Shown: one piece after another, positions 48,455 through 49,095 of the stretch
How positions within the stretch are numbered: the first letter of the stretch is position 1
Layout of the letters: the number at the start of each line of letters is the position of its first letter
Virus genome (UHGV): UHGV-0083175
Origin: a virus
Length of the DNA stretch: 52,653 nucleotides
Direction: 5' to 3' (one strand)
Made by a program: the position numbers and the translations under genes
The notes under the pieces: generated by a model
The model's database searches: none
What the model saw: the letters and a program-made list of their open reading frames with translations, nothing else
What the model was told of the DNA's origin: nothing

Positions 48455-49095
48455 ATAAAAAAAATCCCGCAGAGTTAGCGGAGCTGCGGGAAATAACGAT
48501 GAAGATTAACGTTATGGAGTTATTTTTTTGGGCAGAAGAACAGTAACGCAGCGTCATTATTGCGGCTACAGGCAATTGCCGGAAGTGTGAATAAACTCAG
48601 AATTTTTATTCCGTTGTGGTGATGCCCGGGCTGGCCAGTGACGGGATAAAAAAATCCCGCAGAGTCCGGAGACTGCGGGACAGAACCGATGAAGATTAAC
48701 GTTCAAGGAGTTTTGTTTTTATTGACCCGAAAAAACTGTAACGCCCCGGAATGATATCTGCCACGGGAACGTACAGAAAATGTGAAGAAATTCAGACTTT
48801 TTCTGTCGCAGGTTTACAGAACGGATGACCGCCAGGGTACCAGTGGCGTAAATGAGCAGGATGTTGTGGTGTGGCTGAAGCAAAAAAATCTCCCGTAATA
48901 TCGCCGGATACTGACGGGAGACGAATAGTCACCTTAAGGAGGTCTGATAATTATTGCTTTTATTGAGCAAAAAAACTGTAACGCTGCGTCATTATAGTGG
49001 CTACAGGCAATTGCCGGAAATGTGAAGAATTTCAGAAATTTTATTCCGTCATGACACAGGCACCCTCCGGGGTGCCTGTCGTTTTCTGGCATAAA
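48455..49095. repeat. three ~190-235 bp repeat units with conserved hairpins between I and J
   Basis: Each unit: A-run + hairpin (TCCCGCAG...CTGCGGGA, or compensatory TCTCCCGT...ACGGGAGA), AACCGATGAAGATTAACGTT, AAAAAACTGTAACGC, and a conserved ~65-nt block in units 1 and 3. Confidence 0.6.
49056..49087 (+). terminator. hairpin with T-rich tail upstream of J
   Basis: ACAGGCACCC-tccg-GGGTGCCTGT followed by CGTTTTCT. Confidence 0.45.

What the first reader, a model, noticed from the sequence alone, without database searches (positions are those of the whole stretch)
48455..49095. Three repeat units with covarying hairpins and short MKINV... ORFs between I and J
Lambda has no spacer here. This 640-bp insert holds three units, each with an A-run plus hairpin (a minus-strand terminator configuration), where unit 3 has a compensatory stem (TCTCCCGT/ACGGGAGA versus TCCCGCAG/CTGCGGGA), conserved blocks, and in two units a tiny ORF beginning MKINV. 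It may encode small RNAs or peptides, or be a recombination hotspot next to the host-range gene.
Basis: seen in the sequence. Interest (0 to 1): 0.5.

Follow-up and report, generated by a model that had tools for sequence, protein, structure and literature searches.

The report
Three tandem prophage PasB-like sRNA genes
The insert between phage tail genes I and J is a row of three diverged copies of a small regulatory RNA gene read from the opposite strand; the family (PasB / EcOnc22-24) has been detected in pathogenic E. coli, but its function is unknown and it is never annotated.

Summary
Window 48453-49129 is the spacer between tail genes I and J of a lambdoid STEC prophage. It holds three repeat units, each ending in a minus-strand hairpin plus U-run.

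The units are genes of a known Hfq-dependent sRNA family:
- EcOnc22/23/24 of EHEC Sakai (Tree 2014). The published northern probe lies on the unit; the RNA is about 85 nt and is destabilised without Hfq.
- PasB of EPEC E2348/69 (Pearl Mizrahi 2021). It is 83 nt and lies between I and gpJ, antisense.

Published 5' ends fix the anatomy: a -10 box TAnnnT, then a start 7 nt downstream. Predicted RNAs are 48533-48457, 48728-48648 and 48968-48882.

Each unit also carries an almost invariant TCTGA-N6-TCACA box centred at -60.5. I read this as a CRP site; that is inference.

The MKINV ORFs are not conserved (ATG in 36 of 83 distinct units).

Apparently undescribed in the papers I searched:
- tandem arrays of one to four diverged paralogues
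- a rare "type B" subfamily (unit 3), found in 100 of 5426 complete genomes

The family occurs in 1337 of 5426 complete E. coli genomes and is unannotated in every listed match. Targets are unknown. Verdict: new members of a known kind, moderate interest.

The parts
47772..48452 (+). Tail assembly gene I (left flank)
   Evidence: ORF; Pfam Lambda_tail_I, E 3e-16; annotated as tail assembly protein in the identical genome.
48457..48533 (-). sRNA gene 1 (next to I), type A, predicted 77 nt. It is the closest relative of Sakai EcOnc22. The terminator stem is 48465-72 / 48484-91, followed by U8.
   Evidence: 89-90% identical over the whole unit to the single units of other prophages, including Sakai Sp15. 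Matches the EcOnc22/23/24 probe region. CM hit of 93.7 bits. Fold z = -3.8. The 5' end is placed by homology with the PasB 5' end and the CLASH read starts.
48540..48604 (-). Promoter region of gene 1: -10 TACTGT at 48540-45, a second ATAAT-like box at 48555-60, and a CRP-like 22-mer AATTCTGAGTTTATTCACACTT at 48583-48604 centred at -60.5.
   Evidence: Conservation profile of 83 distinct units. TAnnnT at fixed spacing, and TCTGA-N6-TCACA in 81 of 83 units. Coordinates.
48648..48728 (-). sRNA gene 2 (middle), a type A variant, predicted 81 nt. The terminator stem is 48655-62 / 48673-80, followed by U7.
   Evidence: CM hit of 80.9 bits. 85-87% identical to single units such as L116, L110 and L088. 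Fold.
48735..48799 (-). Promoter region of gene 2: -10 TACAGT at 48735-40 and a CRP-like 22-mer AAGTCTGAATTTCTTCACATTT at 48778-48799 centred at -60.5.
48882..48968 (-). sRNA gene 3 (next to J), type B subfamily, predicted 87 nt. It has a longer terminator (GUCUCCCGUCAGUAU / AUAUUACGGGAGAU) followed by U7. The core is CCUCCUUAAGGUGACUAUUCG.
   Evidence: CM hit of 54.5 bits. Fold z = -3.5. Type B also occurs as a single unit in L089 and L062. The body is found in 100 of 5426 complete genomes.
48975..49039 (-). Promoter region of gene 3: -10 TACAGT at 48975-80, a TATAAT box around 48990-96, and a CRP-like 22-mer ATTTCTGAAATTCTTCACATTT at 49018-49039 centred at -60.5.
49056..49089 (+). Terminator-like hairpin on the sense strand (ACAGGCACCC-TCCG-GGGTGCCTGT, then CGTTTTCTGG) just upstream of the J ribosome-binding site. 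It is part of the single-unit module too.
   Evidence: Terminator scan. Present in Sakai Sp15 and E2348/69 and in most aligned units.
49130..52603 (+). Host-specificity gene J (right flank)
   Evidence: ORF; annotated as gpJ in the identical genome.

Best explanation
The insert is a tandem array of three independent, diverged genes of the PasB / EcOnc22-24 family. These are prophage-encoded, Hfq-dependent small RNAs, transcribed antisense to the tail operon.

Each unit has the same parts:
- an almost invariant TCTGA-N6-TCACA box
- a weak sigma-70 promoter whose -10 is TAnnnT, with the start 7 nt downstream
- an A/U-rich, mostly unpaired body of about 45-55 nt, carrying the conserved core AACUCCUUAA-GUUAAUCUUC (unit 3: CCUCCUUAAGGUGACUAUUC)
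- an intrinsic terminator with a U7-8 tail

The RNAs of 77, 81 and 87 nt are made in the lysogen. They bind Hfq through the U tail and pair with mRNAs in trans through the core. Three paralogues with different cores raise the dose and widen the target range.

Shown in homologues: expression, size, 5' end, Hfq dependence, and recovery in Hfq and RNase E hybrids.

Inferred here: expression of these three copies, the seed, and activation by CRP-cAMP from a class I position (-60.5). The CRP part alone has a confidence of about 0.4.
For: Identity with EcOnc22/23/24:
- These are Hfq-CRAC peaks in Sakai prophages Sp15, Sp14 and Sp11, with a northern band of about 85 nt that is destabilised in the hfq deletion.
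- All three peaks lie in I-J spacers, antisense.
- The probe GGGAGAGAACGATGAAGATTAAC... is the + strand of the unit.
- The coordinate offset between Sakai genome versions was resolved.

Identity with PasB:
- It is 83 nt, at NC_011601 1466343-1466261, minus strand.
- Its probe is the reverse complement of the terminator loop and 3' arm seen in units L061, L056 and L064.
- It lies between I and gpJ.
- It drops 6.8 log2 units in the hfq deletion and ranks 15th by RIL-seq interactions.

5' ends: the PasB 5' end, and CLASH reads starting at GCCTGAAAAATAAC, both fall 7 nt after TAnnnT.

Family analysis:
- 83 distinct units share the promoter block, the core and the terminator.
- The terminator is kept through stem variants.
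- Of 180 loci with a unit, 157 have I and J on both sides.

The CRP-like box is present in 81 of 83 units, matches 9 of 10 core positions, and is centred at -60.5 in all three window units. PasB is higher in overnight LB than in DMEM.
Against: - There are no expression data for this strain or for units 2 and 3. Type B has never been probed.
- Targets are unknown. CLASH gives only 1-2 hybrids, with the yjbJ coding region, and I could not retrieve the RIL-seq partner list.
- No good -35 element is present, and the consensus promoter scan found nothing.
- A second conserved ATAAT-like box 15 nt upstream of the -10 is unexplained.
- The left CRP half-site is invariably TCTGA rather than TGTGA, which could point to another factor.
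- The growth-condition difference also fits stationary-phase control.
- Covariation in the terminator rests on few events.
- RNAalifold found no consensus fold for the body.
Confidence: 0.85

Rival explanations
1. The RNAs act mainly in cis. They are perfectly complementary to the I-J spacer of the late transcript. During lytic growth they, or their convergent transcription, would trigger cleavage or interference and so set the amount of J (host-range protein) relative to upstream tail genes. More units would give a stronger effect.
For: The family is confined to the I-J junction and is always antisense. The conserved core is the complement of an AAGGAG-like box on the sense strand. A sense-strand terminator-like hairpin sits between the array and the J ribosome-binding site. 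No trans target of more than 10 nt exists inside the prophage window.
Against: The RNAs are abundant on Hfq in uninduced lysogens, when late genes are silent. They form hybrids with chromosomal and other prophage RNAs. The J ribosome-binding site lies at least 90 nt from the nearest sRNA gene. Confinement to I-J can be explained by descent and by this being a moron site, since sodC inserts there too.
Confidence: 0.2
2. The units encode small peptides (MKINV..., or the ORF behind the AAGGAG box), possibly as a type I toxin-antitoxin pair with the antisense RNA.
For: ORFs starting MKINV exist in units 1 and 2. Some units have AAGGAG followed 5-12 nt later by ATG or TTG and ORFs of 7-30 codons.
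Against: The ATG is present in only 36 of 83 distinct units. Frames, lengths and stops differ between close relatives because of indels in the T/A run. The unit 2 and Sakai frames are broken. The peptides are basic and hydrophilic, unlike type I toxins.
Confidence: 0.03
3. The units are non-genic repeats: recombination scars, a REP- or IS-like element, or stacked terminators that merely insulate I from J.
For: Copy number varies from 0 to 4. The I and J flanks are mosaic. Terminator-like hairpins occur on both strands.
Against: The units occur nowhere else in the window or in the fetched loci. Promoter, core and terminator are separately conserved across units that are only 68-74% identical. 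Homologues give discrete Hfq-bound RNAs.
Confidence: 0.05

Closest known systems
PasB sRNA of EPEC E2348/69 (Pearl Mizrahi et al. 2021, PMC8550237; surveyed by Zhu, Shabalina and Storz 2026, bioRxiv 10.64898/2026.05.13.724894)
   Same: Same locus: between tail assembly gene I and gpJ, antisense. Same promoter block, conserved core and terminator. Similar size (83 nt against 77-87 nt predicted). Hfq-dependent.
   Different: E2348/69 has one copy in a 240-nt spacer; here there are three diverged copies in 677 nt. The survey reports few nucleotide differences among PasB variants, typically one variant per genome, and no tandem PasB copies. Unit 3 (type B) is too diverged to be an obvious PasB BLAST hit.
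EcOnc22/23/24 of EHEC O157:H7 Sakai (Tree et al. 2014, PMC4104026)
   Same: Unit 1 is 89% identical to the Sp15 unit. The northern probe region and the CLASH read start are conserved. Listed as function unknown.
   Different: In Sakai the copies are single, one per prophage (Sp15, Sp14, Sp11). The papers I read do not state the equivalence of EcOnc22-24 and PasB (no 'EcOnc' in the survey).
Tandem paralogous sRNAs such as OmrA/OmrB, PrrF1/PrrF2 and Qrr1-5 (named; their properties are from general knowledge)
   Same: Adjacent paralogues with their own promoters and terminators, a shared core and diverged flanks. They give dosage and partly distinct target sets.
   Different: Those are core-genome genes that arose by local duplication. 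Here each unit is closer to single units in other prophages (87-90%) than to its neighbours (68-74%), so the array looks assembled by recombination between phages.
AgvB/AsxR anti-sRNAs and HnrS (EcOnc10-12), other multicopy prophage sRNAs of EHEC
   Same: Short Hfq-binding sRNAs carried by lambdoid prophages, in several copies per genome.
   Different: Different sequence and position: they sit at the PR' moron site or among other late genes. Rfam models for AgvB and AsxR give no hit here. A CACAACA motif at 48862-48868 lies outside the predicted transcripts.
Prophage sodC moron at the I-J junction
   Same: Same insertion point and same antisense orientation. This shows that the junction tolerates autonomous cassettes.
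   Different: It is a protein-coding cassette. In those loci it replaces the sRNA promoter, and the sRNA body and terminator remain directly after the sodC stop.

Membership tests
PasB / EcOnc22-24 sRNA family | Encoded in the spacer between tail genes I and J of a lambdoid prophage, antisense to them | tested here: met
   Window units lie at 48457-49039 on the minus strand, between I and J. The arrangement is the same in E2348/69 and Sakai.
PasB / EcOnc22-24 sRNA family | Sequence homology to the published RNAs, including their northern probe sites | tested here: met
   Unit 1 is 89-90% identical to the Sakai-type unit. A CM built on the family scores 93.7, 80.9 and 54.5 bits for the three units, and 89-90 bits for PasB and EcOnc22. 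Probe sequences map onto the units.
PasB / EcOnc22-24 sRNA family | RNA of about 75-85 nt that starts just after the T-run downstream of TAnnnT and ends at an intrinsic terminator | tested here: met
   The same landmarks sit at the same spacing in all three units, predicting 77, 81 and 87 nt. This is a prediction; no RNA data exist for this strain.
PasB / EcOnc22-24 sRNA family | Hfq binding and Hfq-dependent stability | not testable with these tools
   Shown only for homologues.
Hfq-dependent trans-acting sRNA (general class) | Rho-independent terminator with a U-rich tail, and an accessible seed | tested here: met
   Hairpin plus U7-8 in each unit. The body is largely unpaired in minimum-energy folds. 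The seed itself is inferred from conservation and from the sRNA halves of CLASH hybrids.
Class I CRP-dependent promoter | A CRP site (TGTGA-N6-TCACA) centred near -61.5 upstream of a sigma-70 promoter | tested here: inconclusive
   TCTGA-N6-TCACA matches 9 of 10 core and 14 of 22 consensus positions. It is centred at -60.5 in all three units and kept in 81 of 83 distinct units. I did not score it with a position weight matrix, and there are no binding or genetic data.
AgvB/AsxR anti-sRNA family | Conserved 3' domain of about 42 nt; position downstream of PR' at the moron site | tested here: not met
   No Rfam hit at E <= 1 in 47500-50000, and none at gathering score in the window. The location is different.
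REP / IS / dispersed repeat | Copies dispersed at unrelated sites; transposase or terminal inverted repeats | tested here: not met
   Only three hits in the window. 157 of 180 loci with a unit have I and J on both sides, and the rest are mostly contig ends or sodC inserts.
Type I toxin-antitoxin / small-protein gene | A conserved short ORF with a start codon and ribosome-binding site, overlapped by the antisense RNA | tested here: not met
   Start codon in 36 of 83 units. Frames and lengths are inconsistent.

The most novel reading that the evidence does not exclude
The I-J junction of lambdoid prophages is an expandable cassette site for PasB-family sRNAs. Recombination between co-resident or superinfecting phages stacks one to four paralogues with different seeds, including an undescribed type B subfamily. 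All would be under one shared nutritional signal, a CRP-like box at -60.5. A lysogen would thus gain a tunable, catabolite-linked set of regulators of host mRNAs. The same RNAs could double as antisense brakes on J expression during lytic growth.
Probability: 0.3. Interest if true: 0.55.

Novelty: new member of a known kind. Interest (0 to 1): 0.3.

Why it matters
- Annotation. The family sits in about a quarter of complete E. coli genomes (1337 of 5426; up to 10 copies each). It carried no annotation in any of the 40 sampled RefSeq matches and has no Rfam model. Annotation pipelines and sRNA surveys therefore miss it.
- Naming. EcOnc22-24 (EHEC) and PasB (EPEC) are the same gene at the same phage position. 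Recognising this joins two sets of experimental data.
- Copy number. Arrays, and the diverged type B, mean that BLAST surveys undercount both copy number and seed diversity.
- Testable lead. The conserved upstream box gives a concrete hypothesis for when these RNAs are made.
- Phage biology. The junction is also a mosaic joint and a moron site next to the host-range gene, which bears on how tail modules are exchanged.

Tried and rejected
1. AgvB lead. A CACAACA motif on the minus strand (48862-48868) suggested a GcvB mimic. AgvB maps to the PR' moron site, Rfam gives no hit, and the motif lies outside the predicted transcripts.
2. Raw Table S2 coordinates. On NC_002695.2 they put EcOnc22 on the hairpin next to J. 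This was an artefact of genome versions: the offset is +142 at 1.27 and 1.94 Mb, +135 at 2.9 Mb and +129 at 5.1 Mb. It was resolved with AgvB1, stx2B, the probe and CLASH reads.
3. HnrS. It also reaches up to nine copies, but it is EcOnc10-12, a different RNA.
4. Searching papers for the RNA sequence gave only irrelevant hits. Searching the supplement for probe fragments failed because of text-extraction errors.
5. RNAalifold on 47 bodies predicted no consensus structure. I used a hand-set terminator structure and a CM instead.
6. RNA duplex scans of the window for trans targets failed or timed out. A k-mer complement scan found only chance-level matches of 9-13 nt, the longest in T-rich runs.
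7. The RIL-seq partner list of PasB could not be pulled from the stored tables.
8. TATAAT as the -10 box, which would give RNAs of about 93-100 nt and a CRP centre at -44.5, does not fit the mapped 5' ends.

Full report
**1. What is in the sequence**

Window 48453-49129 is the 677-nt spacer between tail assembly gene I (47772-48452) and host-specificity gene J (49130-52603) of a lambdoid prophage. The window is identical to STEC strains 2013C-3033, FHI_NMBU_10 and JNEC-KY176.

The repeat finder confirms three units:
- a 92-nt family at 48523, 48718 and 48958
- an A-run plus stem family at 48458, 48648 and 48882

On the minus strand each unit ends in a hairpin followed by U7-8. The stems are TCCCGCAG/CTGCGGGA in units 1 and 2 and TCTCCCGT/ACGGGAGA in unit 3. 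An HMM and a covariance model of the unit hit the 52.6-kb window only at these three places.

**2. What it is**

Rfam has no family for it.

*Link to EcOnc22/23/24.* The single-unit form, a 240-nt spacer, is present in phage VT1-Sakai (Sp15). Table S2 of Tree et al. 2014 (PMC4104026) lists EcOnc22 (Sp15), EcOnc23 (Sp14) and EcOnc24 (Sp11) as homologous Hfq-bound RNAs. The northern band is about 85 nt and is destabilised without hfq. All three map to I-J spacers on the strand opposite to I and J.

The paper uses an older Sakai genome version. I measured the offset to NC_002695.2 as +142 (stx2B and AgvB1), +135 at 2.9 Mb and +129 at 5.1 Mb. After correction the Hfq peak covers the sRNA body predicted here. 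The published northern probe 'EcOnc22/23/24' (GGGAGAGAACGATGAAGATTAAC...) is the sense-strand sequence of the unit, so it detects the minus-strand RNA.

*Link to PasB.* PasB of EPEC E2348/69 (Pearl Mizrahi et al. 2021, PMC8550237, Table S6) has these properties:
- 83 nt, on the minus strand at NC_011601 1466343-1466261
- lies between the tail assembly protein (ends 1466255) and gpJ (starts 1466496)
- its probe is the reverse complement of the terminator loop and 3' arm found in many units
- falls 6.8 log2 units in the hfq mutant
- ranks 15th by number of RIL-seq interactions

The units are therefore genes of one family that has two names. A 2021 review and a 2026 survey both state that the function is unknown.

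**3. Anatomy**

I collected I-J junctions with the N-terminus of J and with a conserved DNA pattern, and aligned 83 distinct units. Read on the sRNA strand, five blocks are conserved:
- (i) AATAAAAATTCTGAAnnTCTTCACATTT
- (ii) GTnGC
- (iii) an ATAAT-like box
- (iv) GCGTTACnGT, in which TAnnnT is kept
- (v) the body core AACTCCTTAAnGTTAATCTTC, followed by the terminator

The mapped PasB 5' end falls 7 nt after the TAnnnT box. So do the starts of RNase E-CLASH hybrid reads for EcOnc22-24, GCCTGAAAAATAAC... (Waters et al., PMC5286369). TAnnnT is therefore the -10 element.

Transferred to the window, this gives:

| Gene | Coordinates (minus strand) | Length | -10 box |
|---|---|---|---|
| 1 | 48533-48457 | 77 nt | 48540-45 |
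| 2 | 48728-48648 | 81 nt | 48735-40 |
| 3 | 48968-48882 | 87 nt | 48975-80 |

The RNAs fold into a mostly open A/U-rich body and a terminator hairpin.

The terminator is kept in every unit through three stem versions: UCCCGCAG/CUGCGGGA, CCCACAG/CUGUGGG and CUCCCGU.A.UAU/AUAUUACGGGAG. Loops vary freely. On a model-based alignment, 92.4% of cells pair, against 26-66% for slid partners. Only three pairs (6 cells) change on both sides, so covariation is real but thin.

**4. The upstream box**

Block (i) contains TCTGA-N6-TCACA, followed by TTT.
- It occurs three times in the window against 0.09 expected.
- It is kept in 81 of 83 distinct units, although the DNA between it and the -10 is highly variable.
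- It matches the CRP consensus AAATGTGATCTAGATCACATTT at 9 of 10 core positions. The consensus is from general knowledge.
- It is centred at -60.5 in all three units, close to the class I position of -61.5.

PasB is more abundant after overnight growth in LB than in exponential growth in DMEM. That fits catabolite control, but it also fits stationary-phase control. This step is inference. The invariant C in the left half-site and the missing -35 element are reasons for caution.

**5. Coding potential**

The MKINV ATG is present in 36 of 83 distinct units. The ORFs end at different places and in different frames. ORFs behind the sense-strand AAGGAG-like box are equally inconsistent, because the neighbouring homopolymer run varies in length. 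The peptide and toxin-antitoxin readings are rejected. The conserved 'AAGGAG' is better read as the complement of a CUCCUU motif in the sRNA.

**6. Arrays**

Spacers fall into classes:

| Spacer length | Content |
|---|---|
| 57 nt | none (lambda type) |
| about 240 nt | one unit; the majority |
| about 424 nt | two units |
| 677-715 nt | three units |
| 907-929 nt | four units |
| 854 nt | one promoter-less unit behind an antisense sodC gene |

The window's units are 68-74% identical to each other. Each is 87-90% identical to units that stand alone in other prophages. The array therefore looks assembled by recombination, not by recent duplication. In several loci the end of I is only 72-83% identical to the window's while the start of J is 96-100% identical, so the spacer is a mosaic joint.

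Distribution in complete E. coli genomes:
- Unit 1-like sequences: 1337 of 5426 genomes, 4804 places, up to 10 per genome, with no annotation under any of the 40 sampled matches.
- The type B body (unit 3): 100 genomes.
- The whole three-unit arrangement: 16 genomes.

The 2026 survey reports few differences among PasB variants, typically one variant per genome, and discusses tandem duplication only to exclude it for PasA and PasD. I found no description of PasB arrays or of type B.

**7. How it probably works, and what is not known**

Each unit is an autonomous cassette expressed in the lysogen. Its RNA binds Hfq and pairs with mRNAs through the conserved core.

Evidence for the seed:
- the core is the best-conserved part of the body
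- the sRNA halves of CLASH hybrids comprise the 5' 25-33 nt
- in the one hybrid whose pairing I examined (yjbJ coding region, 1-2 reads), CCAUAACGUU pairs with AACGUUAUGG

That is weak evidence for any particular target. I could not extract the RIL-seq partner list. No convincing target exists inside the prophage.

A cis-antisense effect on the late I-J transcript remains possible as a second role. It would fit the strict confinement of the family to this junction.

**8. Verdict**

- The element belongs to a family already found experimentally in 2014 and 2021. Its function is still open.
- The parts that appear new are the three-gene array, the diverged type B member, the equivalence of the two published names, and the conserved CRP-like box.
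- Interest is moderate. It is useful for annotation and for sRNA biology, but not a new kind of system.

Noticed in passing
window 11210-11422, 13182-13377, 13441-13640, 13702-13889 (+): Four Rfam STnc100 sRNA genes, three of them head to tail (119-172 bits). The same prophage therefore carries a second tandem sRNA array.
   Followed up: no
window 4801-4975 (+); 10236-10307 and 10320-10393 (+): A sok antitoxin RNA (113 bits) and two tRNA genes.
   Followed up: no
window 45058-46212 (+): An OmpC-like porin gene (Pfam Porin_1, E 6e-144) sits inside the tail operon, between a tail protein gene and L. It looks like a moron.
   Followed up: partly
window 49056-49089 (+): A sense-strand terminator-like hairpin lies directly upstream of the J ribosome-binding site. 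It is also present in Sakai Sp15 and E2348/69. It may stop non-antiterminated transcription, for example from upstream morons, from reaching J.
   Followed up: partly
L085 1646-2501 (also L063, L060, L099, L010, L067, L096): These 854-nt I-J spacers carry an antisense Cu,Zn superoxide dismutase gene (sodC; Pfam Sod_Cu, E 4e-32) in place of the sRNA promoter. The PasB-like body and terminator (L085 1654-1747) follow the sodC stop at about 1840, so they may serve as its 3' UTR and terminator.
   Followed up: partly
window 48862-48868 (-): CACAACA, the GcvB R1 target consensus, lies between the terminator of gene 3 and the promoter of gene 2. It is outside the predicted transcripts unless the terminator is read through.
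   Followed up: no
window 48555-48560 and 48990-48996 (-); alignment of 83 units: A second conserved ATAAT/TATAAT box lies 15 nt upstream of the functional -10, at about -28 to -23. It does not fit the mapped 5' ends. It may be a second promoter or a protein site.
   Followed up: no
L047, L054, L059, L055, L048, L062, L071, L089 (I-J junctions): The end of I is 72-83% identical to the window's while the start of J is 96-100% identical. This indicates recombination breakpoints in or next to the spacer.
   Followed up: no
NC_002695.2 against the coordinates in Tree 2014 and Waters 2017: Published Sakai coordinates are shifted relative to the current RefSeq record by +142 (1.27-1.94 Mb), +135 (2.9 Mb) and +129 (5.1 Mb). 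Uncorrected, this places EcOnc22-24 on the wrong feature.
   Followed up: yes
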